Below, in pieces: positions 15,797-31,275 of a DNA stretch of 60,047 bases; positions within the stretch are counted from its first letter, which is position 1; each line of letters opens with the position of its first letter. A program made the translations under genes and the position numbers. Source of the DNA: a virus (Duplodnaviria; Caudoviricetes). The DNA is taken from positions 1-60,047 of IMG/VR virus record IMGVR_UViG_3300044823_000503; one strand, written 5' to 3'. The notes under the pieces were generated by a model that saw only the letters and a list, made by a program, of their open reading frames with translations, had not been told where the DNA came from and made no database searches.

Positions 15797-16867
15797 GTGT
15801 CGCTGGCCGGCCCCATCATCGCGCTCACCTCAGGCGGCACGGCCCCGATCCCCGCCCCCAAGGTCTCGACGCCCCCCTGCACCGCGCTGCTCCAGAATGT
15901 CTCGCCCTTCGCCCTCCAGGCGCAGGTGCAGGGCGGCACCATCTGGGTCGCCCCCTACGTCCAGCAGTCCGTCCCCTGGTCCAACGCGGTGGGGATCACG
16001 GTCACCGCTGAACCCATCATCACGAGCCCGGTTGGAGCTCCCGCGACCCTCCTGGTCACCTTCTACGACCAGGGCGAGGCCGTCCCCGCCAACGGGCCCA
16101 TCACCGGCTACACCTCGATCAGCGGCGCGACCATCAACGCGAGCATCGCCGGGCCCCTCACCGTGAGCTTCGCCCCCGGCACGACCGTCTCCATCGGCGG
16201 CTCGGTGGCGACCACCATCGACACCTCAGGCGGCCCCGTGCTGATGACGGGGACCGTCGCCATCAGCAGCGGGACGGTCAACGTCGGCACCATCGCCGGG
16301 GCCGTCTCCATCGCCGCCAATCAGGTGGTGGCGGTGCAGAACACCTCGGGCGGGACGGTCCAGGTCGGGGGCACGGTGGCGATCAGCTCCGGCACGGTGA
16401 ATGTGGGCACCATCTCGGGCTCGGTCACCATCGCGAGCGGCAGCGTGAGCGTCTCCGGCACCGTGGCCATCTCCTCGGGGACCATCAACATCGGCACCAT
16501 CTCGGGAGCGGTGTCGCTGACCAGCGGCACCACCATCATCACCGAGACCGGCTCGCTCACCGACATCACTCCATCCGGCAGCTATTCGGTTTCGTACGGC
16601 ACCTCGGGCGGGACGGGCAACTGGTACCAGGTTCTTGCCGCCAACGGCAACCGTAGAGGGCTGCTCATCTTCGCCAACTGGAGCAACGCGGTACAGGTGG
16701 GGGTGGGCCTGGGGACGACCGGCTATTTCAGCATCGTCTTGAACCCCGGCGACTACTGGGAGATGCCCGCCCCCATCTGGACTGGCATCATCTTTCTCTT
16801 CTGGTACGGCGGAACCCTCTCTGGCGGCTTCGTCAACAGCTACTACATTCTCACCGAGATAACCTGA
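15797..16867 (+). CDS. Spike/fibre protein with GTVAISSGTVNVGTI repeats
   Basis: Three near-identical beta repeats and an aromatic C-terminal head domain. Confidence 0.75.
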   Translation: MSLAGPIIALTSGGTAPIPAPKVSTPPCTALLQNVSPFALQAQVQGGTIWVAPYVQQSVPWSNAVGITVTAEPIITSPVGAPATLLVTFYDQGEAVPANGPITGYTSISGATINASIAGPLTVSFAPGTTVSIGGSVATTIDTSGGPVLMTGTVAISSGTVNVGTIAGAVSIAANQVVAVQNTSGGTVQVGGTVAISSGTVNVGTISGSVTIASGSVSVSGTVAISSGTINIGTISGAVSLTSGTTIITETGSLTDITPSGSYSVSYGTSGGTGNWYQVLAANGNRRGLLIFANWSNAVQVGVGLGTTGYFSIVLNPGDYWEMPAPIWTGIIFLFWYGGTLSGGFVNSYYILTEIT

Positions 16868-17155
16868 ATGTCGATGACACCGTTCGGCCCAGGGCACACC
16901 TGGATGTTGGCATCGCAGGAGGCACTGCCACGCGGTGGCGCGCGTCTGGTCGCGGCATGGTCGAGTTGCGCTCGCTGCGCTGGGGGGTGGGCACCGTCAG
17001 AGCCAGCCCATTGCGCCGCAACGGCGGAGTGGCTGACGGAGCATCCAGGCGACGACGGGGCCTGTCACTGCCGCCAGCACAGCGGCGTGGACGCGGCGAG
17101 GGTCACCGTCATCGGTACCTTCGCGCCTCCGTCCGCGCAGGGAGGTGGGAGATGA
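16868..17155 (+). CDS. Cys/His-rich fibre-associated protein
   Basis: CxxC...AHCxxTAEWLxxHPGDDGACHCxxH, shared with 18768-19283. Confidence 0.65.
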   Translation: MSMTPFGPGHTWMLASQEALPRGGARLVAAWSSCARCAGGWAPSEPAHCAATAEWLTEHPGDDGACHCRQHSGVDAARVTVIGTFAPPSAQGGGR

Positions 17156-18771
17156 CCCAGGTCATGGTCTCCGTCACCCCGGGAATGAACTGGCTGGGCC
17201 CGTGGTCCGCCACCACCGCGTACGCGCCGACCAACGTCGTGAGCTTCGCCGGCAGTTCCTATCTCTGCATCGCCGCCAACACCAACCAGCAACCCCCCAA
17301 CGCGACATATTGGAACCTCGTGGCGGCGTCGGGTGCAGGGGGAACGCCGGCGACCTCAGTCACTGGCCCGGACGCCTTCGGCGCTTCCCCCGTCGTGGGC
17401 GTGGGGACCGCCTTCGCCCGCCAGGATCACGATCACGGCCTGCCGTCTGCACCCGCCGACCTCCCCCTCGCCGGCGGCACCATGAGCGGGGCCATTGCCA
17501 TGGGGGCGCACAAGATCACCGGGATGGCCAACGGGGCGGCGGCGCAGGACGCGGCCACCTTCGGCCAGCTGCCGAGCGTCCCCGGCCCAGCCGCCTCCGT
17601 GACCGGCCCGGACGCCTTCGGGGCCTCCACGGTGGTCGGGATCTCTGCAGCCTACGCCCGCCAGGATCACGACCATGGCCTGCCCGCCTCGCCATTCAAC
17701 TGGCTGGGGGCCTGGTACAGCGGCACTGCGTACGTGGCGGGCGACGCCGTCGGCAGCGGTGGCTCCTCGTACATCTGCATCCTCGGCAACACCAACGAGG
17801 TGCCTCCGAACGCCACCTATTGGAACCTCCTGGCCCAGGAGGGGACCGCGGGAGTGCCGGCGACCTCGGTCACTGGCCCGGACGCCTTCGGCGCCTCAGC
17901 GGTCGTGGGCGTGGGGACCGACTTCGCCCGCCAGGATCACGGCCACGGGCTGCCCGCAGCGCCCGCGGACATTCCACTCTCCACCGTCACCGCTGCGGGC
18001 GATCTGATCCAGGGGACAGGTTCGGGGGCGGTGGCCCGGCTTGCGCTGGGCACCCTCCACTACATGCTCGCCGCCGGGGCTACCGCTGTGGGCTGGGTGG
18101 CCTCGGCGGTCTCGACCCTCACGACGGCTGGCGACCTCCTCTATGCGAGCGCGGCGAACACCCTGGCGCGGCTGGGAATCGGCGTGACGGGGCAGGTGCT
18201 GACCGTGGTATCGGGAGCCCCAGCCTGGTCCGGCGGCACAGTGAACGGCGGCCCTCCGAGCGGCTCCGGCGCCTATGCGGGCGAGCAGATTCAGGACACC
18301 AAGTACGGCGTGGTCTGGTGGTGGGACGGGAGTGCCTGGCACGCCAACGGACCAGGGCTTATCAAGGCCGAGATGTACCGCAATGCTGCCTGGACGCCAG
18401 CGAACAGCGGCATCGCCATTCCTTATGACACCCCGTTCAGCGACCCCCTGAGCCTTATTACGATCGCCAGTCACTACTTCAAGTGCCCCATCGCTGGGGA
18501 TTATCGAGTGGCTGCCGATGTCTCCCAGTCAACCGCAGGCGCAGCCACGTACATTCAGTTGTTGTGTAGCGGTTCTTCAGTGTCAGGCAGCAGGGTTTTT
18601 GCAGGGAGCACAAGCGGGGTGGTGGGTGACTACGGCGGGACAGCGGGGACGGTGCGAGTCTCGTGCGCCGCTGGTGATGAGTTGACGATCCTCTTCTACT
18701 GGAGCAACGCCTACGCCATGCAGGTGGGTGCTGAATGGGCCTGGGCACAATTCGAGTTCGTGTCCTCATGA
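17152..18771 (+). CDS. Receptor-binding fibre: 2 CBM5/12-like repeats, 3 SVTGPDAFGAS...ARQDHxHGLP repeats, C1q-like tip
   Basis: NWLGxW...Y...GSSYxC...PPNATYWNL twice; FKCPIAGDYRV; lower GC in the tip domain. Confidence 0.75.
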   Translation: MTQVMVSVTPGMNWLGPWSATTAYAPTNVVSFAGSSYLCIAANTNQQPPNATYWNLVAASGAGGTPATSVTGPDAFGASPVVGVGTAFARQDHDHGLPSAPADLPLAGGTMSGAIAMGAHKITGMANGAAAQDAATFGQLPSVPGPAASVTGPDAFGASTVVGISAAYARQDHDHGLPASPFNWLGAWYSGTAYVAGDAVGSGGSSYICILGNTNEVPPNATYWNLLAQEGTAGVPATSVTGPDAFGASAVVGVGTDFARQDHGHGLPAAPADIPLSTVTAAGDLIQGTGSGAVARLALGTLHYMLAAGATAVGWVASAVSTLTTAGDLLYASAANTLARLGIGVTGQVLTVVSGAPAWSGGTVNGGPPSGSGAYAGEQIQDTKYGVVWWWDGSAWHANGPGLIKAEMYRNAAWTPANSGIAIPYDTPFSDPLSLITIASHYFKCPIAGDYRVAADVSQSTAGAATYIQLLCSGSSVSGSRVFAGSTSGVVGDYGGTAGTVRVSCAAGDELTILFYWSNAYAMQVGAEWAWAQFEFVSS

Positions 18772-20135: not shown

Positions 20136-20500
20136 GATGGGCCTTCGGTGCCAGCACGAAGGCGGGGGAGACCATCGACCAGACCCTCCGCACCACCTGG
20201 GCCAACCTCAAGACGACGCACTGCCTCAGCCCTTCGGCACTCACCGAGAGCCATGTGACCGAGGCCATCCAGGGGGCGCTCGCCCTCATCGGCACAGGTC
20301 TCTTCGGCACCCGGCACTCGGTGGGGGTGGGGGGCACGACGGTCGAACCCGGGGATCCGGTGAGCGTGCCGCCGGAGTTGCACCAGATCATGGTCTCGGT
20401 GGCCCAGCTTCCCGATCTGCCTGCCGCATCTGCTGTGTCGGTGGCGGCACCCCCGACCCCAGCGCCGATAACCGCACCGCCAGCCGCTCCCGCCGGGTGA
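20132..20500 (+). CDS. Hypothetical protein, similar to 1807-2103
   Basis: MRWAFGASTKAGETI...WANL...SVGVGG resembles MSFAIRVKAGADDV...WNRL...EVSVAG. Confidence 0.55.
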   Translation: MRWAFGASTKAGETIDQTLRTTWANLKTTHCLSPSALTESHVTEAIQGALALIGTGLFGTRHSVGVGGTTVEPGDPVSVPPELHQIMVSVAQLPDLPAASAVSVAAPPTPAPITAPPAAPAG

Positions 20501-20738
20501 AGGTAGTCGCCGGGCCGCCCGGCCGGGTACGATAGCCGCCGATGAAGCCCCGGTGTGAGGCGTGCCAGGCCCCCGACCCCGTCGCCCTGCGCCAGCTCCT
20601 GGAGCTCGGCCTGCAGGAGAAGCCCGACCCCGAGGGCTCCGCGTTCAAGGCCCCCGACCTCTGTCCCCGCCACCGTCGCGCCCTGGCCGCCTTCGCCGCC
20701 CGGCTGGGCGAGGATGGCCGGCTGCTGTCGGGCACCGC

Positions 20739-21071
20739 GTGAGCCCCCTCACCCTCCCCGAGATCGTCAGCCGGCTGGACGCCCGGCTCGGCCGCGCCCC
20801 GCGCGCCAAGGCGCAGCGGCTCGCCTCCCTCCATTTCCACCTCACCGGGCCCGGCGGCGGTGACCTCTACGTGGCCGTCGGCAATGGCCTGGCCATGGCC
20901 AGTCAGAAGAAGGGCCCCCTCCCCGTCGACTGCACCATCCAGTTGACCATAGCGGACGCTGAGGACCTCCTCGAGGGGCGGCTGGACGCCGTCAAGGGGT
21001 ACTTCAGCGGCAAGATCAAGATCACGGGAAGCAGGGACCAGGCGATGCGCCTGGGTGATCTCCTGCGCTGA
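20739..21071 (+). CDS. SCP2 sterol/lipid carrier domain protein
   Basis: FHLTGPGGG...DCTIQL...LLEGRLDAVKGYFSGKIKITG...AMRL. Confidence 0.85.
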   Translation: MSPLTLPEIVSRLDARLGRAPRAKAQRLASLHFHLTGPGGGDLYVAVGNGLAMASQKKGPLPVDCTIQLTIADAEDLLEGRLDAVKGYFSGKIKITGSRDQAMRLGDLLR

Positions 21072-21152
21072 TCCCGTGAGCTCCGCGCCGTGCTGGCCCG
21101 CACAGCGTCACGGAGCGCACTCCGCTTACCGCCTTCGCCCACTCTGGTGCGA

Positions 21153-21707
21153 TCAGAGGATGCCAGGTGCCGAGACGACCATCCCCGTAACCCCCGGGCA
21201 GGCCGTCCCACAGGCGCAGCCGCCGATCCCGTTGAGGCAGAAGACGCACGAGCCGCCGACGATCCCCGGGCCCACGCCACCACCCGGGCAGCACTGCGCT
21301 TGGCACCCGGTGATCTCAGGCGGCGTCCAGGTGGTGGAGGTGCAGCCCGGCTGGCCCGCGAAGTGGATCGAGCCGGGGGGGCAGCAGCCCCAGAGGTTGA
21401 GACCCGGCCCCATGTCGCTGTACGGGCCGCTGTAGTCGCCGCAGTCGCCCGTGCCGGTGCACTCGCAGGGGCAGGGGTACGGCTCGTCGGCGGCGAGCGC
21501 GCAGACCGGCCCCATCTGCTCATACGTTTGCCCGGGAACATTGACTCCGGTGCCGACCTGTTCCCCGGTGTAGACCTGGCCCTCGGGGCAGCAGCCGCCC
21601 GGGGGCGGAGAGGGCGGCGCGGCACCTCCGCTGATCGCCGCCGCGGTCACCAGGACGGCCACTAGCGCCCCCCCTCCGATGAGGGCGCCCTTCTCCACGC
21701 GATCCAT
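21153..21707 (-). CDS. Cys-rich membrane-anchored protein, ends VSAPGIL
   Basis: N-terminal TM segment, about 17 Cys; leaderless after the conserved promoter. Confidence 0.7.
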   Translation of the reverse strand: MDRVEKGALIGGGALVAVLVTAAAISGGAAPPSPPPGGCCPEGQVYTGEQVGTGVNVPGQTYEQMGPVCALAADEPYPCPCECTGTGDCGDYSGPYSDMGPGLNLWGCCPPGSIHFAGQPGCTSTTWTPPEITGCQAQCCPGGGVGPGIVGGSCVFCLNGIGGCACGTACPGVTGMVVSAPGIL

Positions 21708-21714
21708 GTTCCGC

Positions 21715-21748
21715 ACGCTACCAGCCGCCCCATAGCGGCAGGGAGATC
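21715..21748 (-). promoter_or_regulatory. Viral promoter GATCTCCC-N20-TAGCGT
   Basis: ATG follows 7 nt after the -10. Confidence 0.7.
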
Positions 21749-22112
21749 GGAGGACGGGTTGGGCCGGTTCGTCGGAGAGGGCAGGACCGGATCGTCAGCA
21801 TGGAGAGACATGGTGCGTCGGCATGGGTATGGCATGGACTGTCGGGCCGGGCGGGGGTTGGAACGGAGCGTCGGGTGTGGAGAGGAAGGGGAGGGATCGT
21901 CGGGGCGGGACGGCTTGGATCGTCGGGATGGGTGGGGGTGGTGCGTCGGGATGGTTCGGCAGGGACTGGCGTGGACCGTCGGCTGGGTGTGGACAGGTTC
22001 GTCGGGTAGGGGCGGGTTGAGACGGTTTGTCGGATGTGGTATGGCATGGATCGTCGGATGGGGTCGGATGGGGCAGGTCGGGTGCGTCGGGTGCGGCGTG
22101 GGCTGGAGCGTC
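21749..22112 (-). ncRNA. Array 1: 14 units of GAC-(NNN-CC)4-6, putative guide RNA array
   Basis: + strand GTC at 21771, 21794, 21817, 21841, 21870, 21899, 21922, 21945, 21978, 22001, 22029, 22053, 22086 and 22110, separated by GGNNN pentamers. Begins at the stop codon of the RAMP gene. Confidence 0.8.
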
Positions 22113-22761
22113 AGACCGGCCCGAAGCTGTCGATGGTGAAGGTGCCCGACCCCTGCGAGCGGTCACTGCCGATGCCGTTGAACCTCATGTACTCCAGCAT
22201 CGCCTCCAGCTGCTCCTGCGACCCCACCTTGCTGACGCCGTCGTCCAAAACCCGGATGGTGAACGTGAGCGGCACGTTGTCGGCGTACTCGAAGCGCTTG
22301 ATCGAGGTCCGAGGCCCCTGCATGGTCATCACCGTGAGCGGCCTGTCGTCCACCTGGACCGGAACGGTGATCGCGACCACCTTCTCCAGCACGAAGATCC
22401 GCTCCGCCACCTTGGACCGGAACGCCTTGACCCCGAGCGCATCCTTCAGGATGTTGGCCGCCTCTTTGAGCGCCCCCTTGAGGCAGCGCCCCTCGTACCC
22501 GGGGGTGCCGTCCGGGAGGCGGTAGAAGACCACCCCGTGGATCTCCTCGGCGCTCAGTTGGGCGGCCGTGGCGGCGTGCTCCTCGCGGGCCGACGACGGC
22601 GTGAGCGGCACGTCGGCGAGCTCCGCCGGCATCTCGGCCGGCACCTTCATGCGGGCCGCTCGCGCCTCCAGCCAGCTGTCCAGCATCTTCTCCTTGGCGG
22701 GCACGCCGGCGACCAGGCGGTCGACGGTGATGCTGAGCGAGTAGTCGATCCAGGTGAACAT
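22111..22761 (-). CDS. Stand-alone Cas7/Csm3-like RAMP protein
   Basis: GTPGYEGRCLKGALKEAA matches the RAMP 'IPGSSLKGALR' motif; C-terminal Gly-rich loop GIGSDRSQGSGTF; AAGGAGG RBS. Confidence 0.8.
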   Translation of the reverse strand: MFTWIDYSLSITVDRLVAGVPAKEKMLDSWLEARAARMKVPAEMPAELADVPLTPSSAREEHAATAAQLSAEEIHGVVFYRLPDGTPGYEGRCLKGALKEAANILKDALGVKAFRSKVAERIFVLEKVVAITVPVQVDDRPLTVMTMQGPRTSIKRFEYADNVPLTFTIRVLDDGVSKVGSQEQLEAMLEYMRFNGIGSDRSQGSGTFTIDSFGPV

Positions 22762-22799
22762 GGTTTCCCTCCTTGGGAGATTGAGGATCTGGGCCGGGG

Positions 22800-23153
22800 T
22801 CAGTCCCCCGGCGCCTCCGAAAAGTCAGGGGACAGGCTCGCCGTCCAGAGCCCGAGATCCTCCACATGGCAGCTAAACCCGCTGCTCTGCAGGGGGCCGG
22901 GTGACACCAGCCTCACCACGGGCTCTCCAGGAACGACCAACCTCCCAAAGCTGCCTTCGCTCCAGGAATCTGGCGCGGCGAGCGATGCGACGATGACCCG
23001 CAGGCCGACCACGGCGCCGGGCAGCAGCCCCAGGCTGCGCATGTCTGCACACCGCTGACAGCCATCCTCTGGGCTCGGCTCTGGGCCGCCGTATGATCTC
23101 TGGCCGCACTCGGTGCAGTGGGTTGTCCATTGGCGACCGACCTCAAGAGACAT
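22800..23153 (-). CDS. Zinc-finger hypothetical protein
   Basis: CTEC...CQRC, GGAGG RBS. Confidence 0.55.
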   Translation of the reverse strand: MSLEVGRQWTTHCTECGQRSYGGPEPSPEDGCQRCADMRSLGLLPGAVVGLRVIVASLAAPDSWSEGSFGRLVVPGEPVVRLVSPGPLQSSGFSCHVEDLGLWTASLSPDFSEAPGD

Positions 23154-23554
23154 GACCTCTGCATCCTCCCTATATCACGGTTCCCCGACTCCTCAGCCTG
23201 AGGGACGTTGTCGTCCGGATGCGCCTCCTGGATCGCCTGCAGGCCAGCCGCGAGGCCGCCCTGGTACGCCCGCTCCCACGATTCCTGGGCGGCGCGCCGC
23301 GCACCGCTCTCAGTCGCCAGCATGGCCTCCACCGTGAGAGTTGGCGGCACGATACCGAAGAGGAGGGCGAGCACCTCATGGCCGGCCTGGTCGAACGCCC
23401 TCAGGTACGGCCTCAACTCCTCGGGGCAACGGTCGAATGTATCGAGGAACAACCCGCCCGTTTGGACGTGCAGCACGCTCCCTACGGTGTCCAGGAATTT
23501 GTGCCGGCTGGCCTCGAAGCTCTGGATCACCAGCATACGGTCGTGGTCGGTCAT
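22913..23554 (-). CDS. Hypothetical protein (3' part overlaps the next gene)
   Basis: GGAG RBS; first ~125 aa look protein-like. Confidence 0.5.
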   Translation of the reverse strand: MTDHDRMLVIQSFEASRHKFLDTVGSVLHVQTGGLFLDTFDRCPEELRPYLRAFDQAGHEVLALLFGIVPPTLTVEAMLATESGARRAAQESWERAYQGGLAAGLQAIQEAHPDDNVPQAEESGNRDIGRMQRSCLLRSVANGQPTAPSAARDHTAAQSRAQRMAVSGVQTCAAWGCCPAPWSACGSSSHRSPRQIPGAKAALGGWSFLESPW

Positions 23555-23666
23555 CGGATCGTCTCCATTGCTCGAAAGGGCACGATCTCCCGGCGTCGGG
23601 AAACGCTCGGTGACCGCACCCCCGCCTCATCATCCATCCCGATCTCTCCCAAAGCGTCGGATTTTA

Positions 23667-23710
23667 CCGTCGGGAATCATAGCGCACTCCCCGACGGATT
23701 GCCGTACACT
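23667..23710. promoter_or_regulatory. Divergent promoter region with an 8-bp inverted repeat
   Basis: CCGTCGGG...CCCGACGG (23667-23697); -10 TATGAT on - (23676-23681); -10 TACACT on + (23705-23710). Confidence 0.55.
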
Positions 23711-23719
23711 TTCGGCCGT

Positions 23720-23861
23720 GAAGGCTCACCCCGCTCCTCACACCGACTCTCCCAGCCACCCCACGCCATTCCAGGACGACGTACCGCCCCGCCCCATCCC
23801 AGGCCGACTATCCGACCCGACCCGGACTGACAGACCGCCCCACTCCATGCCGATCCGCCCC
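23720..23861 (+). ncRNA. Array 2: 4-5 units of GAC-(NNN-CC)4-6
   Basis: GAC at 23745, 23778, 23806 and 23829 (units of 33, 28, 23, 33 nt); starts about 9 nt after TACACT. Confidence 0.75.
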
Positions 23862-24029
23862 GGGGGTCGCCCCGGCCAGGTCGTCCCGCGCAGCGGCATC
23901 TACGGCGCCGGGGGCCGGGAGACAACGCTCCGGCGCGGCGTTCGCTTCCCCCCCTGCCCCCCGGGGCTGACCTGGGAGCCGGTGCGCGTCACCGGCGCAG
24001 AGCAGCATCGCCAACCCCCGGCTGGCTGA
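23847..24029 (+). CDS. YjzC-like small protein
   Basis: PGQVVPRSGIY...ETT...GVRFPPCP...W. Confidence 0.6.
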   Translation: MPIRPGGRPGQVVPRSGIYGAGGRETTLRRGVRFPPCPPGLTWEPVRVTGAEQHRQPPAG

Positions 24030-24868
24030 TGGCGGCCGATACCTCCACTGCGGCCCACCCGCGGCGATACACCGAGGCGGAGCTCGTCCAGATGCTCCGC
24101 AAGCGCCACGCCCGGCTGGGCAACGGGGGATCGGGGGAGTACGCCTTCCTGACCCAGGTGCGCGACGCGGCCGGCTTCTACGGCTCCCGGACCCTGGACG
24201 TGGTCACCCTCAGCCTCTGGCCGTCGCGGGGCATGGAGCTCCACGGCTATGAGGTCAAGGTCAGCCGGGCCGACTGGATCCGCGAGCTCCATGAGCCCGC
24301 CAAGGCGGAGGCGTTCGTCCAGCGGCTCGACCGCTTCTCCCTGGTCGTCGCCGACGAGGCCATGGTGGCTCCCGGGGAACTACCGCCCGGCTGGGGGCTG
24401 ATGGCAGTGCGGGGCGGCCGCCTGGTCACTGTGGTGCAGGCCCCCAATCTCCGCCGGGGAAAGGAGCCGCCGCCGGTCAGCCGCTCCTGGCTGGTCTGTC
24501 TGCTCCGTGCTGCCGGCGCCGTCCCCGAGGTCGACCCTGCCGAAGCCCGGGCCGCCCGCGATGAGGGCTTGGCGGCGGGGCGCTCTCAGGCGGAGCGTGA
24601 GGTGGTCAACCTCCGGGCGGAACTCGGGAATGAGAGAGGGCGGAGGGAAGAGGAGGCCGCCGCCCGCCGCGCCGTCTTCCAGGCGCTGGGCATCGGCGGG
24701 ACCGGAGGCCATGAGGTGGAGGCGCTCCAGGCCATCGCCAGCGCCGTCCGCACCGTGGTGGTCGCCGATCACGGCGTGGAGACGGCCAGGGCGCGCCTCG
24801 AGGGCCTCGCGAGTGTCGCTGAGGACTGCGCCCGCCGACTGCGCCAGGGGATCGAGGCCGCACAGTGA
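24029..24868 (+). CDS. MmcB-like PD-(D/E)XK nuclease with coiled-coil tail
   Basis: RTLDVV..LWPSRG..LHGYEVKVSRADW...ELPPGWGLM. Confidence 0.75.
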   Translation: MAADTSTAAHPRRYTEAELVQMLRKRHARLGNGGSGEYAFLTQVRDAAGFYGSRTLDVVTLSLWPSRGMELHGYEVKVSRADWIRELHEPAKAEAFVQRLDRFSLVVADEAMVAPGELPPGWGLMAVRGGRLVTVVQAPNLRRGKEPPPVSRSWLVCLLRAAGAVPEVDPAEARAARDEGLAAGRSQAEREVVNLRAELGNERGRREEEAAARRAVFQALGIGGTGGHEVEALQAIASAVRTVVVADHGVETARARLEGLASVAEDCARRLRQGIEAAQ

Positions 24869-25458
24869 GCCTCATCGGCTACGCCCGCGTGAGCAAGGAC
24901 GATCAGAACATCAACCTCCAGGTGGACGCGCTGCGCGCCGCCGGCTGCGACGCCATCTTCACCGAGTGGGCGAGCGGCGGCGACCTCAAGCGTCCCCAGC
25001 TGCGCCTCTGCCTAGAGACGGTCGGGCCCGGCGACACCCTGGTCGTCTGGAAGCTCGACCGCCTGGGCCGCTCCCTGCGCCAGCTCATCTTCCTGGTCCC
25101 GGAACTGGACGCCCGAGGGGTGAAGGTGCGCTCGCTCACCGATCCGTTCGACACGAGCAACGCCGCCGGCCGGTTCCAACTCGGGATGCTCGCTGTCCTC
25201 GCCGAGTATGAGCGCGACCGAATCCGTGAGCGCACCAAGGCCGGCCTCGAGGCGGCCGCCCGCCGCGGCCACCGGCCCGGGCGCCACCGGGTGATCTCGG
25301 ATCGGCGGCTTCAGGTGGCCCAGGAACTCATCGCACGCGGCCAGTCGGTGGCGGAGGTGGCGCACTCCATCGGGGTGGCCCGCACTACCCTCTACGACGC
25401 CCTCAGACGCTCTCTGGAGGGCAATGATATACATGGCTCACCCGGTGCTGGGCTATGA
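24865..25458 (+). CDS. Small serine recombinase (resolvase/invertase)
   Basis: IGYARVS..DQ...RPQL...GDTLVVWKLDRLGRS...ERT..GL; C-terminal HTH. Confidence 0.95.
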   Translation: MSLIGYARVSKDDQNINLQVDALRAAGCDAIFTEWASGGDLKRPQLRLCLETVGPGDTLVVWKLDRLGRSLRQLIFLVPELDARGVKVRSLTDPFDTSNAAGRFQLGMLAVLAEYERDRIRERTKAGLEAAARRGHRPGRHRVISDRRLQVAQELIARGQSVAEVAHSIGVARTTLYDALRRSLEGNDIHGSPGAGL

Positions 25459-26018: not shown

Positions 26019-26637
26019 TGCGGATCGTCAACCGGACCCCGTACCCGGTGGCGACCGTCCGCCGCATCATCCTTGCCGCGATGCCGGCACGGGGGCGTTC
26101 TCCAATCGTGGTGGTCGCGTTGAGGACCACGTGTCCGAGATCGCGCTCCACGAGGTGGGCCATCTCATCGACCCCGAGGGCAACCCCGACTACGCCGCCG
26201 AACTGGCCGTGGCGCCCATCGAGGAGGACCCCGCCGATGTGGTGGCGACCCTCCAGGGCGTGGATGCCCACTGCCACTTCTGTGAGGCCTCCAATGGCCT
26301 GGCCATCTGCACCATGGACATGGACGGCACCCGCCAGCGCGCCCACCTGCGCCACCAGGTGCCCCGCGGCCTGGGCGGCCTGATCCCGGCCACCCGCAAG
26401 CGTCTCCTGGTCGTCCTCCACGAGCTGGACGAGGCGGAGCCGCTCCTCCCTGGACGCTCCGGACAGTTCGACATGGTGAGAGAGATGATCGGGGATTGCC
26501 AGGTGGCGCTCTCCGGCAATGCGCTCGGCCCCGATGACATTTCCCAGGCTCACAAGCTACTCTACAGAGCGTGGGATGCGAACTTCGATCTGGTCTGGGC
26601 CTACTACATGCTGGTCCTGTACGGACAGGCGGAGTGA
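26018..26637 (+). pseudogene. Zincin-like gene split across two frames (junction ~26120)
   Basis: Frame A MRIVNRTPYPVATVRRII matches the N-terminus of 39393-39782; frame B ALHEVGH...RAWDA matches 2-628. Confidence 0.6.
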
Positions 26638-26638
26638 C

Positions 26639-28276
26639 GTGGGCGGCCTGATCGCGGCGATCCTCGCCTGGATCGCCCGGCTCTTCGGCCGGACGCCTGC
26701 ACCCAAGCCCGCTCCGGTGCCGGTTCCGGTACCAACACCTCCTCCGGCACCGACCCCCGTGCCGACACCGGCCCCGGTGCCCGTTCCCTCGCCTCCGACC
26801 CTCGCCAGCGCCAGGTTGACAGCCTCCATGACCGGCACCACCGGCATGGCGGTGCTCCTGTTCGTCGACTCGGCGGGCGACCAGACGGAGCCGCCCGCGG
26901 GCGTGGAGGGGGTCTTCACGAGCGCCAGTCCCTCCCTCACGGTGGGAGCGGCGGCGATCGTCGCGGGCAGCGATACCCCGTGGGACGATACCCTCCAGGC
27001 CCCGCTCGCCGTCGCGTCCGGAACCGCCCCCGGTCAGTACAGCGTGGGCATCGCCGCCCTCCTCACCGGCCCCGGTGGATCGCCGCTCTCGCTCGCCAGC
27101 GGGCAGCCCTTCCCGCCACCGGCACCGGCCGAGGCCAGCTTCACCGTCCCCGAGCCGGTTCCACCTCCCCCGGTGATCGTGCCCGGCGAATCCGGCATCG
27201 ACGCCGAGATGATCGACACCCTGCCGGCTGGCATCCTGGCCGCCGCGAACGTGCTCTTCTTCTACGGCTCCCCCTTCGGGTCGACCCAGGGGCCGGCCCG
27301 GGTCACTCCGGCCGCCTTCGTCAACGGCCAACTCGCGAGTGGCAAGCCCTGCTGGGGCATCTATTTCCCGGGCTGCGACCCCGCCCAGGCGTACGCCCAG
27401 GCGATGTCCGCCCCCGCCGACACCGGTGTCGTCATGGACCTGGAGCCGCAGCACGAGCAGGACGCCCAGAGCCTCCTCTGGTGCCAGCAGTTCGGTGCCT
27501 ACATGCTGGCGCACGGCATGCCCTGTGCCATCTACTCGCACCAGGCGACCTGTGAGGCGCTCGCCGCCTATTACGACGCCCAGTGGTGGGATGGTCAGGG
27601 TCAGCCGACCGTCGTGCCGGTGAGGACCGCGATCCAATACGGTCAGCAGGTGGTGGGCGGGACGCCGTATGACACCTCGGCCTGCGACACCTACTTCCTG
27701 ACCGCTGCTCCGGCTCCGCCTCCGCCCCCCAGCCTCATCTCTCTGGCCGCCTTCGTCGCCCAGGACAACGGCCAGCTGGTGACCGTGCCGGGCTGGCCGA
27801 CCGAGCCCGAGTGCACCGACCTGGCGCTCTCCTGGCTGATGTCCCAGGGCATCTCGGGGGGTTCCGTGCACGGCAACGCCGTGCAGTGGGCCTCCGAGAG
27901 CATCCCGGGCTGCCAGTGGATCCCCAACTCCCCGACCAACATGCCGGCCCCTGGCGATGTCCCGGTCTGGGGCCCGTACGCACCGCTCGGGGTGGGTGCC
28001 GACGGTCACGTGGACATCGCGTACCAGGCGATCGCCGTGATGAGCTTCCTCGGTTTTGATCAGAACTGGCCGACCGGCAGCCTGGCCCACCTGCAGACTC
28101 ACTCGTACGGTGGCGTGCTGGGCTGGCAGCACCCGACGACCGGTCTGGGACGTGCCATCCTGCGCCTCATCGTCCGCCCACAGCGGGACCGGGCGGTCTG
28201 GGTGCCCTACCCGGAGTGCCGCAAGGACGCGCTCTGGGTTCCCGACGCCAAACTCTCGAGGAGGATCGCGGCGTGA
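26639..28276 (+). CDS. Modular cell-wall hydrolase: Pro linker, Ig-like, GH25-like and CHAP domains
   Basis: CHAP: ECTDL...GNAVQW...PGDVPVW...GHVDIA...DQNW; central VMDLE...IYS...QY. Confidence 0.75.
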   Translation: MGGLIAAILAWIARLFGRTPAPKPAPVPVPVPTPPPAPTPVPTPAPVPVPSPPTLASARLTASMTGTTGMAVLLFVDSAGDQTEPPAGVEGVFTSASPSLTVGAAAIVAGSDTPWDDTLQAPLAVASGTAPGQYSVGIAALLTGPGGSPLSLASGQPFPPPAPAEASFTVPEPVPPPPVIVPGESGIDAEMIDTLPAGILAAANVLFFYGSPFGSTQGPARVTPAAFVNGQLASGKPCWGIYFPGCDPAQAYAQAMSAPADTGVVMDLEPQHEQDAQSLLWCQQFGAYMLAHGMPCAIYSHQATCEALAAYYDAQWWDGQGQPTVVPVRTAIQYGQQVVGGTPYDTSACDTYFLTAAPAPPPPPSLISLAAFVAQDNGQLVTVPGWPTEPECTDLALSWLMSQGISGGSVHGNAVQWASESIPGCQWIPNSPTNMPAPGDVPVWGPYAPLGVGADGHVDIAYQAIAVMSFLGFDQNWPTGSLAHLQTHSYGGVLGWQHPTTGLGRAILRLIVRPQRDRAVWVPYPECRKDALWVPDAKLSRRIAA

Positions 28277-29172
28277 CCTACGTACCCTTCCACACCCCGG
28301 TCACCTCCACCAAGTTCGGCCACGTGGCGATCGCCCGGCCCACGCGGCCGGAGAGGATGTACCTCTTCAACGGCGACCCGACGACGCTTCGGGTCTCGGA
28401 TTGGGAGTCTCCTGTCCCAGTTCTCGACCAGGAGGACCTCATCGAGCAGGGCATCTCGACCAACCTGCTCATCCCCGGAGCCCCCCGGGTGGACGCGCTC
28501 GGCTCCTGCACCTGCAACGGCGGGGCGGCCCATTTGGGCGAACGGCTGCACGCGGCAGGGGCCGCGGCGTCGGTCGCGGCTGTGGCAGGTCAGCAGCTCA
28601 GCTTCACCGACCCGGTGCAGGCCGAGCGGTTCGCCATCTGCACCTATCACGCCGTCACTGACCTGACCGGGCAGCCCTCCGAGGAGTGGCCGCCCACGGA
28701 CTGCGGCTCCAATGAGTACTACGTGGGGCAGTACTTCCAGCGCCTCAATTTCATCCAGGGCAGCCAGGAGCCGACCACGCTCGCCTCGCTGCTCTCCCTG
28801 CTCCAGACCGGCTCGGTGGCGGTGGGTGGGCCCTGGCTCAACGCTTGGATGACCCCCAACGCCCAGGGATTTGTGGATGGGGACGGGTCGCTGGAGGCCT
28901 GGCAGGCGGCGCTCGCCTCGGGGGTCGCCGGCGGCCACGAGACGCTCATCTCGGCGATCGAGGCGATCGCCATGCTGACCCTCAGTCAGGTGGACCTGAC
29001 CAAGACCATCCTTCGGTGCCGGAACTCCTGGTCCAAGAGCTTCGGCGATCAGGGCTCATACCGCCTGCACGCCTCGACGTACAGCTACGCGTTGGCCCAG
29101 TGGCAGTTCGACCGCTTCACGGTCGCCGCTCGGCCCCGGCCCCAGCCGGCACCGCTCCCGGTGGCGGCATGA
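28273..29172 (+). CDS. Papain-like (C1) cysteine peptidase
   Basis: VLDQ...GSCT, GGHE, RNSWSKSFGDQG. Confidence 0.8.
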   Translation: MTYVPFHTPVTSTKFGHVAIARPTRPERMYLFNGDPTTLRVSDWESPVPVLDQEDLIEQGISTNLLIPGAPRVDALGSCTCNGGAAHLGERLHAAGAAASVAAVAGQQLSFTDPVQAERFAICTYHAVTDLTGQPSEEWPPTDCGSNEYYVGQYFQRLNFIQGSQEPTTLASLLSLLQTGSVAVGGPWLNAWMTPNAQGFVDGDGSLEAWQAALASGVAGGHETLISAIEAIAMLTLSQVDLTKTILRCRNSWSKSFGDQGSYRLHASTYSYALAQWQFDRFTVAARPRPQPAPLPVAA

Positions 29173-29380: not shown

Positions 29381-30365
29381 TTACCCTTCGGAGGAAGCGG
29401 CCACCGAGGGGCGGCAGGTAGGCGGCTCAGGGTTCGTTGTCGACTATCCGACAGGTGTGACCGATTGGCGCGTTCGGTATGTAGTCACCTGTAAGCACGT
29501 TGTTGAGGGGGGCGGCCATTGGGTGCGGCTCAACCATCAGACGGGCACGCATATCGTTCACATACCTCCCGTACCTCCCGACGGCCCTAACCCTGACCAC
29601 TGGGTGCCCGCTCCAGGCGACGATGACTTTGAGGTTGCCCCCCTTCGGCTTCCCAGCCATGTCGCGCCGTACGCACTTGAGTTGGATGTTGTCGCTCTGA
29701 CTCAGGAGAAGGCCGTCGCCTTGAAGGTTGGTCCTGGTGACGAGGTGTACATGGTTGGTAGGCTTCTTGCGCACGCTGGGCGGGTTACTAACAATCCCGT
29801 AGCGCGCTTCGGGAACGTCTCCCTCATGCCCAACGTAAAGGAACTGGTGCGCGACGGTAGGGGAAAGGACGTTGAGGCGTACCTGATCGAGATGCGGTCA
29901 CATGCCGGCTTCAGTGGCTCTCCAGTCTTTCTCCTTATCCCGCAGGGGACGTTCCGGGGCGAGATCGGTGATACCTCATTGGAGGATCAGTACACGCGCT
30001 TTCGCCTGTTGGGGATTGACACGGGGCACAAGCTGGATCACCTAGATGTGCTCTCCCGCACGTCAAGCGGCTGGGAGAAGCGCCCTGATCTCGACGTGGA
30101 GCACTTCACGGACGTTGCGGTCGTGGCGCCGATTTGGAAGGTGGTGAATCTGTTGGAACGGGGGGACTTCGCTACGGAACGCCTACGAATAGGAAGAGAA
30201 ATGGAGAGATTGCGTGGCAATGAGCGGGCCGTCTCGGATGTGGCTTCCGATGGCTCCGAGTTCGCTCGGTTCCAAGAGTTGACGAGCAAGCTCCTGGAGG
30301 TCCCGAAGACAGAGCTGGATGCCAAACTGCGAGCGGAGAAGGGTGACGATTCTAGCGCCCAGTAA
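29381..30365 (+). pseudogene. 5'-truncated trypsin-like serine protease (IS passenger)
   Basis: GGSGFVV...VTCKHV...GFSGSPVF. Homology continues upstream of the first start codon (29457). Lower GC. Confidence 0.6.
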
Positions 30366-31275
30366 GCTCCGCGTAGGTGAGGCGTCGGCCAGCCGCCATG
30401 CTCAGGACGGCGGCGAACCTGCCCAGGTCGGTGAGGTCACGCATGTTGTATGTGAACACGCGCTCATCCAGATACCGAAACAGATGGAAGGGCTCGACGC
30501 TCACGTAGGTACCGTGCAGACCCCGCTTGAGCAGGCTCCAGAAGTTCTCGATCCCGTTGGTGTGAACCTGGCCGCGGACGTAGCACTCGGCATGATCGAC
30601 GGTCTCGTGGGTGAACTCGCCAGCGAGACCAGTGTAGGAGTCGAGCGCGTCCGTGTAGACGGTGGCACCGGGAGCGACGTGCTGCTGGACGTGGCGGTGC
30701 AGGGTGGCCCTGGTGCGGTCCGGGATCACGGCAGCGCGGACCGCGCCGGGGCGCTGGAGAACGCCCGCGACCGCAGCCTTGTCCATCCCGCCCGTGCCGT
30801 GGATCTTGCGGATGCGGTCGGTCTTGTGCATGTTCCGGGCCTTGCCACCGATGAAGGTCTCATCGACCTCAACGGTGCCGTCGAACTTGTCGAAGCTGCC
30901 GGTCTGCATCGCCAGCCGGATGCGGTGGAGCATGAACCAAGCCGACTTCTGAGTGACCCCAAGAGCGCGGGCCAACTCGTGCGACGAGATGCCGTTCTTG
31001 GAGTTGGCGATCAGCCAAACGGACGGAAGCCACTTGTCCAGGCCGAGCGGCGAGTCCTCGAAGATCGTGCCCACCTTGACCGAGAACTGCTTCTTGCACG
31101 CCTTGCACTTCCACAGGCGGCGGGTGCTTAGGTATGAGAGCGCCGTCCCGTCGCAGCGCGGGCAGACCGGGCCGGTCGGCCAGCGGAGGCCAGCCAGGAA
31201 CTCGGTGCCAACGTCCGGGTCCGAGAAGTAGCGGATCGCCTGGAGGAGGGTGGTGGGGAGGTCTTTCCTTGCCAT
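30352..31275 (-). CDS. IS1595-family transposase
   Basis: RWPTGPVCPRC...CKAC zinc ribbon; VEVDETFIGG; YTD; HTNGIENFWSLLKRG; YLDE. Confidence 0.95.
   Translation of the reverse strand: MARKDLPTTLLQAIRYFSDPDVGTEFLAGLRWPTGPVCPRCDGTALSYLSTRRLWKCKACKKQFSVKVGTIFEDSPLGLDKWLPSVWLIANSKNGISSHELARALGVTQKSAWFMLHRIRLAMQTGSFDKFDGTVEVDETFIGGKARNMHKTDRIRKIHGTGGMDKAAVAGVLQRPGAVRAAVIPDRTRATLHRHVQQHVAPGATVYTDALDSYTGLAGEFTHETVDHAECYVRGQVHTNGIENFWSLLKRGLHGTYVSVEPFHLFRYLDERVFTYNMRDLTDLGRFAAVLSMAAGRRLTYAELTGR

What the first reader, a model, noticed from the sequence alone, without database searches (positions are those of the whole stretch)
23667..23861. Second, inverted mini-array with its own promoter indicates the RNA polarity
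Seen: on the + strand, GAC-tctCC-cagCC-accCC-acgCC-attCC-aggac-GAC-gtaCC-gccCC-gccCC-atcCC-aggCC-GAC-tatCC-gacCC-gacCC-ggact-GAC-agaCC... This has the same grammar and the same 23/28/33-nt unit classes as array 1, different variable triplets and the opposite orientation. It begins about 9 nt after TACACT. A divergent TATGAT faces the RAMP operon inside an 8-bp inverted repeat. Inference: both arrays are read as C-rich RNA from one divergent control region, and array 2 is an independently expressed guide cassette.
Basis: partly seen in the sequence, partly recalled or inferred. Interest (0 to 1): 0.85.

Follow-up and report, generated by a model that had tools for sequence, protein, structure and literature searches.

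The report
Second guide array of phage VIPR
The five-base-phased mini-array is real and is a second guide-RNA array of a phage VIPR system (a CRISPR-related gene silencer first described in 2026), notable because this branch of the family seems to write its guides on the C-rich strand.

Summary
Observation confirmed. Window 23745-23861 (+) holds four units of GAC+(NNNCC)3-6, with GAC-to-GAC spacing 33, 28 and 23 nt. It uses the same grammar as the roughly 370-nt array 1 (about 21740-22112, minus strand). CC-CC lag-5 pairs: 21 observed against 10.6 in dinucleotide shuffles, and 0 of 1000 shuffles reached 21.

The gene next to array 1 (22111-22761, minus) folds as a Cas7-type RAMP (pLDDT 92; top PDB matches Csm3, Cmr4 and type VII Cas7). 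In 28 of 37 assessable related phage loci, the same GAC/NNNCC array follows that gene on its own strand.

The system fits VIPR but is non-canonical. It reads NNNCC in gene sense, whereas SUSP1 reads YNNGG. Its units are short and GAC-punctuated, it has no structured tail, and no conserved accessory gene was found.

C-rich RNA polarity is favoured (about 0.65) by locus architecture but is unproven, because no RNA data exist. Array 2 is absent from the nearest relatives, although they share the flanking control region, including TACACT and TATGAT. It is identical in contigs of two other metagenome runs. No targets were found.

The scan has met this C-type branch before on other DNA.

The parts
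23745..23861 (+). Array 2: four units of GAC+(NNNCC)n, with n = 5, 5, 3 and 6. Units start at 23745, 23778, 23806 and 23829. It is a candidate vrRNA array, C-rich on the + strand.
   Evidence: Identical in contigs of runs X2 and X3. Absent at the homologous place in relatives L001 and L008-L012.
23713..23744 (+). Degenerate C-phased lead-in (cggCC..tcaCC..gctCC..acaCC) between TACACT and the first GAC unit.
   Evidence: and parses. Similarity to the relatives ends at about 23722.
23593..23722 (.). Divergent control region, 86% identical in the nearest relatives.
   Evidence: blastn; alignment A4. Four TANNNT hexamers in 191 nt, against 1.27 per kb per strand in the whole window.
23705..23710 (+). 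TACACT, a -10-like hexamer facing array 2. Invariant in 4 of 4 aligned sequences.
   Evidence: No experimental support.
23676..23681 (-). TATGAT, a -10-like hexamer facing the vipr operon. Invariant in 4 of 4 aligned sequences. Flanked by the 8-bp inverted arms 23667-23674 and 23690-23697.
   Evidence: The arms are imperfect in the relatives.
22111..22761 (-). vipr-like gene (protein P0001, 216 aa): a Cas7-type RAMP with a thumb hairpin (about residues 136-173) and a G-loop (GIGSDRSQGSG).
   Evidence: No Pfam or PHROG hit. AF2 pLDDT 92.4. Foldseek matches to Csm3, Cmr4 and type VII Cas7, 170 PDB hits with E<=1e-3. 1958 clusters in the family. Self-association model scores 0.42 against 0.00 for the best control.
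21740..22112 (-). Array 1: about 14 units of GAC+(NNNCC)n. The first GAC overlaps the vipr stop codon (TGAC). The array fills the gap up to the next gene.
   Evidence: Polymorphic in other runs: 21866-22042 is replaced by 43 letters and 21908-22110 by 246 letters.
22800..23554 (-). Genes between the control region and vipr: P0002 (22913-23554; its C-terminal half looks non-coding) and an overlapping Zn-ribbon-like ORF (22800-23153). Possible accessory (vap) genes, unproven.
   Evidence: The relatives carry other genes here.
23847..24029 (+). 60-codon ORF with high GC3. Its stop overlaps the start of the MmcB-like gene (TGATG). Its first 15 nt lie inside the last unit of array 2.
   Evidence: No Pfam hit.
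24029..25458 (+). Rightward operon downstream of array 2: an MmcB-like DNA repair protein (24029-24868) and a serine recombinase/invertase (24865-25458).
21153..21716 (-). Cys-rich protein with an N-terminal hydrophobic stretch (P0003). It is the next gene after array 1 on the same strand.

Best explanation
The window is a roughly 60-kb phage contig that carries a VIPR (Viral Interference Programmable Repeat) system of a non-canonical branch.

Inferred from published VIPR systems and from my models: the 216-aa RAMP (Vipr) polymerises on its guide RNA, one protomer per 5-nt repeat. It holds the two fixed bases and presents the variable bases to read DNA of a rival mobile element and silence it.

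Shown here: the fixed bases read CC in the sense of the vipr gene, all three other positions vary, and guides are short blocks of 3-6 repeats. Each block opens with an 8-nt GAC-NNN-CC handle, giving unit lengths of 3+5n.

Array 1 is co-transcribed behind vipr; its first GAC overlaps the stop codon.

Array 2, the finding, is a second and smaller guide array of four blocks on the other strand. It lies just downstream of the rightward -10-like TACACT of the shared divergent control region, so both arrays would be made as C-rich RNA.

Array 2 was gained recently: the nearest relatives lack it. It lies in the leader of the rightward operon and is not a free-standing gene.

The polarity, the transcript starts, RNP formation and the targets are all inferred.
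For: Protein:
- RAMP fold. AF2 pLDDT 92.4, pTM 0.83. Foldseek PDB gives 170 hits with E<=1e-3, the top ones being Csm3 6ifl_F (2.8e-8), type VII Cas7 8z4j_J and Cmr4 6s6b_I. The BFVD top hit is named a RAMP superfamily protein, 3.3e-13.
- 23 of 25 family members weakly match the Csm4 RAMP model, best E 8.5e-6, below the cut-off.
- Self-association model: score 0.42, best of 3 controls 0.00. Runs agree in at least 22% of contacts, partner pLDDT at least 71. The mark was reached by 20 of 30 solved pairs and 1 of 23 single chains. The pass may come from likeness to solved Cas7 filaments.

Link between protein and array:
- In 28 of 37 assessable loci of relatives (25-88% identity), a CC lag-5 array starts within 500 nt after the gene on its own strand.
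- Several of the 9 misses still show CGACAAGCC-type units.
- GAC-to-GAC distances of 13-50 nt, pooled over 29 arrays: 204 of 497 are 3 mod 5 and 153 are 4 mod 5.
- The unit consensus is shared across the family.
- Array sequences are not conserved while the grammar is. Array 1 is swapped in part among co-occurring strains.

Published VIPR:
- Vipr RAMP plus 5-nt-repeat vrRNAs, one protomer per repeat. Phage-borne, arrays both upstream and downstream of vipr. Alternative NNNGG repeats and tail-less staggered arrays are mentioned. Read in 10.64898/2026.04.26.720920 (Results, and the type-classification method) and 10.64898/2026.04.26.720927 (Results part 1).

Polarity:
- In SUSP1 the mapped vrRNAs lie in vipr sense. 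In 23 of 24 loci of its clade, arrays read GG in gene sense, and 0 of 24 read CC. Co-orientation therefore looks like the rule, and here it gives CC.
- The first GAC overlaps or abuts the stop codon in 7 of 29 loci.
- Arrays fill the gap to the next co-directional gene.
- Hairpins close the array on the far side in L014 and in phage Mae-JY09.
- TANNNT hexamers: 0 where a G-rich reading would need them (21560-21775 on +, 23870-24120 on -), and 4 in the control region.
Against: - No RNA evidence. No RNA run holds the locus.
- The published family reads G-based repeats. The G-rich strand here reads GGNNN, which matches the 'NNNGG' class named in the preprint's methods. In some relatives the base next to the pair is mostly G on the C strand (59-62% in L017 and L027), that is GGC, the canonical GGY, on the other strand.
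- On the G-rich reading the conserved handle would sit at the 3' end of each unit, like the published 3' tail.
- In L003 and L017 the gene after the array is convergent, so an antisense transcript could read the array.
- L015 has a weak antisense promoter-like site beyond its array, though the region's count of 4 such sites is no more than the shuffle mean of 3.4.
- Neither the window scan nor the L016 scan found a sigma-70-type promoter.
- Sequence homology to SUSP1 Vipr is not detectable. The family profile finds nothing in the SUSP1 genome. hhalign gives probability 7.6% and E 0.0046, over the G-loop only.
- No target was found.
- Array 2 is missing from the nearest relatives.
- Blocks of 3-6 repeats give only 9-18 informative bases.
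Confidence: 0.6

Rival explanations
1. It is the same VIPR system, but the guides are canonical G-type RNAs (GGNNN, the preprint's 'NNNGG' class) made from the strand opposite to vipr. Array 1 would be transcribed convergently towards vipr. Array 2 would be transcribed leftwards, co-directional with and upstream of the vipr operon, like vrRNA1 of SUSP1. The first reader's polarity would then be wrong.
For: - All VIPR types in print use G-based repeats or a 'related consensus', including NNNGG.
- Vipr pockets described so far read guanines.
- GGC on the G strand is favoured in L017 and L027.
- The handle would sit at the 3' end, like the published tail.
- On this reading array 2 takes the place and direction of SUSP1's upstream vrRNA.
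- The next genes are convergent in L003 and L017.
Against: - It needs two dedicated antisense promoters inside or at the start of coding regions. No TANNNT hexamer occurs there.
- Array 1 abuts the vipr stop codon with no terminator between them.
- Array orientation relative to vipr is fixed across relatives of 25-88% identity, including L037 where the arrays lie upstream and still read CC in sense.
- The SUSP1 clade is strictly co-oriented, 23 of 24 loci.
- There is no pyrimidine preference after GG: 52% Y against 47% R. In SUSP1 the figure is 100% Y.
- Under the hhalign alignment, the G-loop positions that read G1 and G2 in SUSP1 (D177, W178) align to S/A199 and D200 here. That alignment is weak.
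Confidence: 0.28
2. Array 2 is not a working guide. It is either a cis-acting Vipr-binding leader, by which Vipr bound to the nascent C-rich RNA occludes the start of the 60-codon ORF and tunes the rightward operon, or a decaying or duplicated fragment of an array with no role.
For: - Its last unit covers the ATG at 23847, and no Shine-Dalgarno sequence precedes that ATG.
- No terminator separates it from the operon.
- The nearest relatives do without it.
- It has only four blocks, one of them with three repeats.
- No target was found.
Against: - The grammar is intact: 19 of 19 pentamers inside the four blocks end in CC, and the GAC handles are in register.
- It is identical in contigs of two other runs.
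- Published VIPR loci also carry a single vrRNA upstream of the genes.
Confidence: 0.1
3. It is not an RNA element at all. The tract would be DNA-level protein-binding repeats (iterons, a centromere, a clt-like site), a proline-rich coding stretch, or chance low-complexity sequence.
For: - The tract is open in a frame from GTG 23718 to 24029 and would read as Pro-rich.
- In L021 and L035 the arrays lie next to replication initiator genes.
Against: - A 5-nt phase and units of 3+5n do not fit codons.
- Long arrays of relatives carry stops in every frame.
- The statistics exclude chance.
- The strand relative to the RAMP gene is fixed across the family.
- Sequence-specific DNA sites would conserve sequence, not only CC and GAC.
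Confidence: 0.03

Closest known systems
VIPR systems, with type II of Escherichia phage SUSP1 as exemplar (bioRxiv 10.64898/2026.04.26.720920 and 10.64898/2026.04.26.720927)
   Same: - Phage-borne.
- One small single-RRM RAMP with a thumb and a G-loop.
- Long non-coding flanks made of 5-nt tandem repeats with fixed and variable positions.
- Arrays both upstream and downstream of the gene.
- Hypervariable array content.
- Predicted self-association of the RAMP.

   Different: - The sense strand reads NNNCC, not YNNGG.
- No pyrimidine-restricted third base.
- Blocks of 3-6 repeats instead of 9-16.
- An 8-nt GAC handle instead of a structured 3' tail or pseudoknot.
- No gene like vap1 is conserved beside it.
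- The upstream array is inverted relative to vipr.
- No detectable sequence similarity to SUSP1 Vipr.

The preprint's supplementary figures S16-S18 and data S4, which I could not see, may already show this clade.
CRISPR-Cas class 1 backbone proteins (Cas7 family: Csm3, Cmr4, type VII Cas7)
   Same: Best structural matches, TM about 0.5-0.58: RRM core, thumb hairpin and glycine-rich loop. They form a filament on a guide RNA.
   Different: - No CRISPR repeat-spacer array.
- No cas5, cas6, cas10 or cas11 was found among the neighbours scanned.
- The period is 5 nt, not 6 nt.
- The gene is phage-encoded and solitary.
Non-canonical VIPR arrays found by a genomic language model (bioRxiv 10.64898/2026.10.21.760802, passages only)
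   Same: 5-nt periodic arrays beside Vipr-like folds, with repeats that are not GGY/NN. The passage cites 21 clusters.
   Different: The motifs named in the passages I read are GAC/NN, CAC/NN, WGT/NN and TGH/NN. NNNCC with GAC punctuation is not named there.
RNA anti-CRISPRs (Racrs; PMC10651486, seen only as a search listing and abstract start)
   Same: Phage-encoded repeat-like non-coding RNAs that engage Cas7-type proteins.
   Different: Racrs mimic host CRISPR repeats and use host Cas proteins. Here the phage encodes its own RAMP, and the repeats are 5-nt units.

Membership tests
VIPR | Vipr protein: a small RAMP with a single RRM core, a thumb and a G-loop. | tested here: met
   AF2 pLDDT 92.4. 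Foldseek matches to Cas7-family RAMPs. 216 aa. G-loop GIGSDRSQGSG and a conserved hairpin tip QGPRTSIKR.
VIPR | Sequence or profile homology to a described Vipr (SUSP1). | tested here: inconclusive
   The family profile A2 finds no match in the SUSP1 genome at E<=10. hhalign of A2 against SUSP1 Vipr aligns only 47 columns at the G-loop, probability 7.6%, E 0.0046. The preprint itself says RAMPs share little sequence similarity.
VIPR | Tandem 5-nt repeats with fixed and variable positions in the non-coding flanks of vipr. | tested here: met
   Found in 28 of 37 assessable related loci.
VIPR | Repeat consensus GGY/NN on the strand of the RNA. | tested here: not met
   The gene-sense strand reads NNNCC. 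The other strand reads GGNNN with no Y preference (52% Y). In SUSP1, 32 of 32 repeats have Y after GG. The preprint's methods allow 'NNNGG, YNNNG, NNNNG' variants, so this does not exclude membership.
VIPR | Arrays co-oriented with vipr and expressed as small RNAs bound by Vipr. | not testable with these tools
   Placement was tested. Array 1 directly follows vipr, and array 2 is on the other strand. Expression could not be tested because no RNA run is listed for the locus.
VIPR | Invariable structured 3' tail after the repeat tract (type II). | tested here: not met
   Only an 8-nt GAC-NNN-CC handle recurs. No Rfam family, including hammerhead, is found in 20500-25000. Tail-less 'staggered' arrays are mentioned in the preprint, but the figure was not seen.
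VIPR | Accessory vap gene beside vipr. | tested here: inconclusive
   The neighbours (P0002, Zn-ribbon ORF, P0003) have no Pfam or PHROG hit. They are replaced by other genes in the relatives.
VIPR | Carried by phages or proviruses. | tested here: met
   Tail fibre, endolysin-like and invertase genes in the window. 30 IMG/VR loci. Microcystis phage Mae-JY09.
VIPR | Guides match rival mobile elements under a gapped code. | tested here: inconclusive
   No match above shuffled guides in the phage itself or in 447 kb of related loci, under 0-skip, two 1-skip and 2-skip rules. Power is low for 8-18 informative bases, and no large collection was searched.
CRISPR-Cas type III | CRISPR repeat-spacer array plus cas10, cas5 and several RAMPs, with 6-nt periodic binding. 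| tested here: not met
   No repeats of 25-40 nt. A single RAMP, and no cas family among the 30 window proteins scanned. The period is 5 nt.

The most novel reading that the evidence does not exclude
This large branch of Vipr proteins (1958 clusters match its profile) has switched the anchor of the repeat code from GG to CC. Because all three remaining bases vary, it would read its target as contiguous triplets, three DNA bases per 5-nt repeat with no skipped base. It would use very short, handle-led guide blocks that are loaded in cis as the ribosome leaves the vipr stop codon. That would be a second, chemically different noncontiguous guide code, with guides also placed in mRNA leaders such as array 2, where they could double as regulators.
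Probability: 0.45. Interest if true: 0.75.

Novelty: new variant of a known kind. Interest (0 to 1): 0.5.

Why it matters
VIPR is a months-old class of RNA-guided DNA silencers, proposed to be older than CRISPR. Its known code is GGY/NN.

If this widespread branch, found in soil, peat and cyanobacterial phages, really uses C-anchored repeats with three informative bases, two things follow. The protein pocket that reads the anchor is evolvable, and a second programmable code exists. This window gives a natural test case, because its two arrays on opposite strands are served by one divergent control region, so a single strand-specific RNA experiment settles the polarity.

If the RNAs instead prove G-rich, the locus is an ordinary member of the family with antisense arrays.

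Tried and rejected
- Fourier power at period 5 showed nothing, because the GAC insertions dephase the signal. I replaced it with lag-5 autocorrelation.
- Pfam and PHROG searches on the RAMP and its neighbours gave no hits.
- Single-sequence AF2 of the RAMP failed, pLDDT 38.
- Rfam found no family in 20500-25000.
- Megablast of 15-35 kb against plasmids and phages gave only a resolvase fragment or nothing.
- Sigma-70 consensus scans were uninformative.
- RNA evidence: no RNA holder is listed for 21100-24900. All 12 runs are DNA, so expression and strand could not be read.
- Target searches were all at the level of shuffled guides. I tried contiguous complement and CC-masked complement against the phage. 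I also tried joined triplets (0-skip) and two 1-skip variants against the masked window plus 447 kb of loci.
- Ideas dropped:
  - Iteron, centromere or clt-like DNA sites.
  - A primase GTC site array.
  - A Rho-loading or antitermination leader (lambda N/nut analogy).
  - A Racr-like decoy. The ATTGCGAC-like tags in L007 were recalled from memory as resembling a CRISPR 5' tag and were not tested.
  - A Pro-rich coding stretch.
  All are less economical once the VIPR preprints were read.
- A YjzC-like reading of the 60-codon ORF, recalled from memory, is not supported by Pfam.
- Literature searches for phage-encoded or solitary Cas7 and for Mae-JY09 found nothing relevant.

Full report
**1. 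What is there**

The window is the whole record held for this genome, one contig of 60,047 bases, with about 70% G+C. It is phage-like:
- a tail-fibre protein at 16957-18771;
- an endolysin-like domain in 26519-28276, an MmcB-like repair protein at 24029-24868 and a serine invertase at 24865-25458;
- an IS1595 transposase at 30352-31275.

No tRNA was found.

From 23745 to 23861 the + strand consists of four blocks, each a GAC followed by 5, 5, 3 and 6 pentamers of the form NNNCC. The GAC-to-GAC spacings are 33, 28 and 23 nt. A larger array of about 14 such blocks lies on the minus strand at about 21740-22112.

**2. More than chance**

A Fourier test fails, because each GAC shifts the 5-nt phase by three. 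Short-range autocorrelation works:
- CC-CC pairs at lag 5 number 21 in 23720-23880, against 10.6 +/- 2.7 in 1000 dinucleotide-preserving shuffles. None of the shuffles exceeded 18. Array 1 has 49 against 23.6 +/- 3.8.
- Per 100 nt, the two arrays score 20 and 18. The next best place in the window scores 10, and the 99.9th percentile of 14,086 background windows is 11.
- Contigs of two further metagenome runs cover array 2 without a differing letter inside it. It is therefore not an assembly artefact. Run X1 may be the source of the window and is not counted.

**3. The neighbouring gene is a RAMP**

The gene 22111-22761 (minus, 216 aa, GC3 0.96) has no Pfam or PHROG match, but it belongs to a large family:
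- 44 close homologues;
- 1958 representative clusters at E<=1e-3 with a profile.

With a 125-row alignment, AF2 gives pLDDT 92.4. Foldseek finds 170 PDB chains at E<=1e-3, and the top hits are all Cas7-family backbone proteins: Csm3, Cmr4, type VII Cas7 and Cas7-11. The best viral model is named a RAMP superfamily protein.

A three-copy model supports self-association. The score is 0.42, the best of 3 controls is 0.00, the runs agree in at least 22% of contacts, and the partner pLDDT is at least 71. The mark was reached by 20 of 30 solved pairs and 1 of 23 single chains. The pass may reflect likeness to solved Cas7 filaments.

**4. Gene and array travel together**

I fetched 38 loci encoding relatives. 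They include MAG contigs labelled Dormibacteria, Acidimicrobiaceae and others, 30 IMG/VR contigs, and the isolated Microcystis phage Mae-JY09.

- In 28 of the 37 loci with room to judge, a CC lag-5 array starts within 500 nt after the gene on the gene's own strand. L001/L010 and L004/L005 are duplicate pairs.
- Of the 9 misses, L007, L015, L025 and L031 still show CGACAAGCC-type punctuated units by eye. L028 and L034 have a terminator hairpin and no array. L004/L005 have arrays kilobases away. L037 has its arrays upstream, still CC in gene sense.
- Pooled over 29 arrays, GAC-to-GAC distances of 13-50 nt fall at 3 mod 5 in 204 cases and at 4 mod 5 in 153 cases, out of 497. The shared unit is ..CC (C)GAC (a)Ng CC NNNCC NNNCC.
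- Long arrays carry stops in all frames.
- Between the window and its 87%-identical relatives, the grammar of array 1 is kept but its sequence and length are not.
- In runs X3 and X4, parts of array 1 are replaced: 21866-22042 by 43 letters and 21908-22110 by 246 letters. The flanks are unchanged.

**5. Identification as VIPR**

My own literature searches for phage Cas7 homologues found nothing. A look-up of earlier notes of this scan named VIPR systems and two preprints, which I then read.

10.64898/2026.04.26.720920 (abstract, whole Results, one method section, and passages) describes:
- phage-borne loci with a small ancestral RAMP (Vipr), usually one accessory gene (vap), and vrRNAs made of 9-16 YNNGG repeats followed by a structured 3' tail;
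- targeting of double-stranded DNA by the variable NN with one skipped base per repeat;
- natural targets in rival phages and satellites;
- seven types, including tail-less 'staggered' arrays and alternative NNNGG, YNNNG and NNNNG repeats.

10.64898/2026.04.26.720927 (abstract and Results part 1) shows:
- one protomer per repeat in a helical filament;
- G1 read by H17 and D177, G2 held by R138 and W178;
- a pyrimidine-only pocket for the third base.

I could see neither figures nor supplements.

The present system matches in protein fold, size, phage carriage, the 5-nt repeat arrays on both sides of the gene, and hypervariability.

It differs in the following ways:
- the repeat reads NNNCC in gene sense;
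- no position is pyrimidine-restricted, with information of 0.02, 0.01 and 0.07 bits at the three variable positions over 1600 pentamers, against 1.46 bits after GG in SUSP1;
- the blocks are short and led by a GAC handle;
- it has no tail;
- it has no conserved neighbour gene.

Sequence homology to SUSP1 Vipr is not detectable.

**6. The polarity question, which is the point of the finding**

As a control I located the SUSP1 locus (record KT454805.2, genes 28031-29061 on the minus strand). Its arrays read TNNGG on the strand of the genes, both upstream and downstream. In 23 of 24 IMG/VR loci of the SUSP1 clade the arrays are GG in gene sense, and in none are they CC.

Co-orientation of arrays and vipr is thus the rule where RNAs were mapped. 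Applied here, it predicts C-rich RNA.

Further points for C-rich RNA:
- The first GAC overlaps or abuts the vipr stop codon in 7 of 29 loci surveyed, as TGAC or TAG-GAC. It also does so in L015 and L016, as TAGAC, by eye.
- Arrays fill the gap up to the next co-directional gene in the window, L002, L021 and L035.
- Hairpins close the far end of the array in L014 and Mae-JY09.
- In this window, all four TANNNT hexamers near the arrays lie in the divergent control region, two on each strand. None lies in 21560-21775 (+) or 23870-24120 (-), where G-rich transcripts would have to start.

This is where the second, inverted array helps:
- With C-rich RNA, both arrays sit inside the two transcription units that leave one control region.
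- With G-rich RNA, both would be antisense to everything around them.

Points for G-rich RNA:
- All published codes are G-based.
- GGC is favoured on the G strand in some relatives.
- The handle would then be 3', like the published tail.
- In L003 and L017 the next gene is convergent.
- No promoter was found by consensus, and no RNA data exist.

I put C-rich at about 0.65.

**7. Array 2 itself**

The 130-nt control region (23593-23722) is 86% identical in the nearest relatives (L001, L008-L012), and TACACT and TATGAT are invariant in it. Similarity stops at about 23722, and the relatives have no array after it. The genes between the control region and vipr are also different in the relatives.

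Array 2 is therefore a recent gain in this lineage. It is stable in the three runs that cover it. No terminator follows it, and its last block overlaps the ATG of a 60-codon ORF coupled to the MmcB-like gene. It therefore lies in the leader of the rightward operon.

No other locus has a strong inverted array within 6 kb; the maximum score is 11.

**8. Targets**

None of the blocks matches the phage itself or 447 kb of related loci better than shuffled guides, under four pairing rules. With 8-18 informative bases per block this test has little power. I did not search the large collections.

**9. Verdict**

The system is a VIPR system, published in 2026 and met several times already by this scan on other DNA, including notes on the same C-type branch. 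It is a non-canonical variant whose RNA polarity, code and targets remain to be shown.

Noticed in passing
window 21866-22110: Array 1 is polymorphic among co-occurring strains. In runs X3 and X4 a contig replaces 21866-22042 with 43 other letters (the dominant form in X3, depth 371). In X3 another contig replaces 21908-22110 with 246 letters. The flanks are identical.
   Followed up: partly
window 23847-24029 (+): A 60-codon ORF with very high GC3. Its stop overlaps the start of the MmcB-like gene (TGATG). No Shine-Dalgarno sequence precedes it and it has no Pfam hit. The 3' part is 70% identical in L008 and L012.
   Followed up: partly
window 22800-23554 (-): The 213-codon ORF P0002 looks coding only in its first 120 codons or so. 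A Zn-ribbon-like ORF (CTECG...CQRC) overlaps its tail in another frame. The nearest relatives carry unrelated genes here, one of them a small membrane protein.
   Followed up: partly
window 21153-21716 (-): A Cys-rich (about 20 Cys) protein with an N-terminal hydrophobic segment. It directly follows array 1 and is conserved in the close relatives. No family hit.
   Followed up: no
L038 6670-7186 (Microcystis phage Mae-JY09, PP395641.1 38460-38976): The unannotated last 500 bases or so of this isolated cyanophage hold a CCGAC-punctuated C-rich array behind a Vipr-like 'hypothetical protein', closed by a strong hairpin. This is a cultured system in which the polarity could be tested.
   Followed up: partly
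L037 1781-5983: In this relative the CC-type arrays (about 1.5 kb in three stretches) lie upstream of the RAMP gene, not downstream, and are still CC in gene sense.
   Followed up: no
window 21740-22112, two blocks of array 1: Two blocks share nearly the same variable triplets (GAT/AGT, ATG, ATA). Joined, they contain TATGAT, the same hexamer as the leftward -10-like box of the control region. Both have a one-base slip after the third pentamer.
   Followed up: no
window 30352-31275 (-): An IS1595-family transposase (DDE and zinc-ribbon domains) inside the phage contig, in a stretch of lower G+C (0.63).
   Followed up: no
window 16221-16521 and 17177-17986: Tail-fibre region genes built of diverged tandem modules (94-nt units; 240/270/510-nt units), with CBM_5_12 and YadA-stalk-like hits.
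   Followed up: no
L016 1400-1440 and about 2000: A perfect 24-bp palindrome (TGTCAATGGCCATGGCCATTGACA) interrupts the array of this relative and recurs in part at its end. It may be an operator or a processing site.
   Followed up: no
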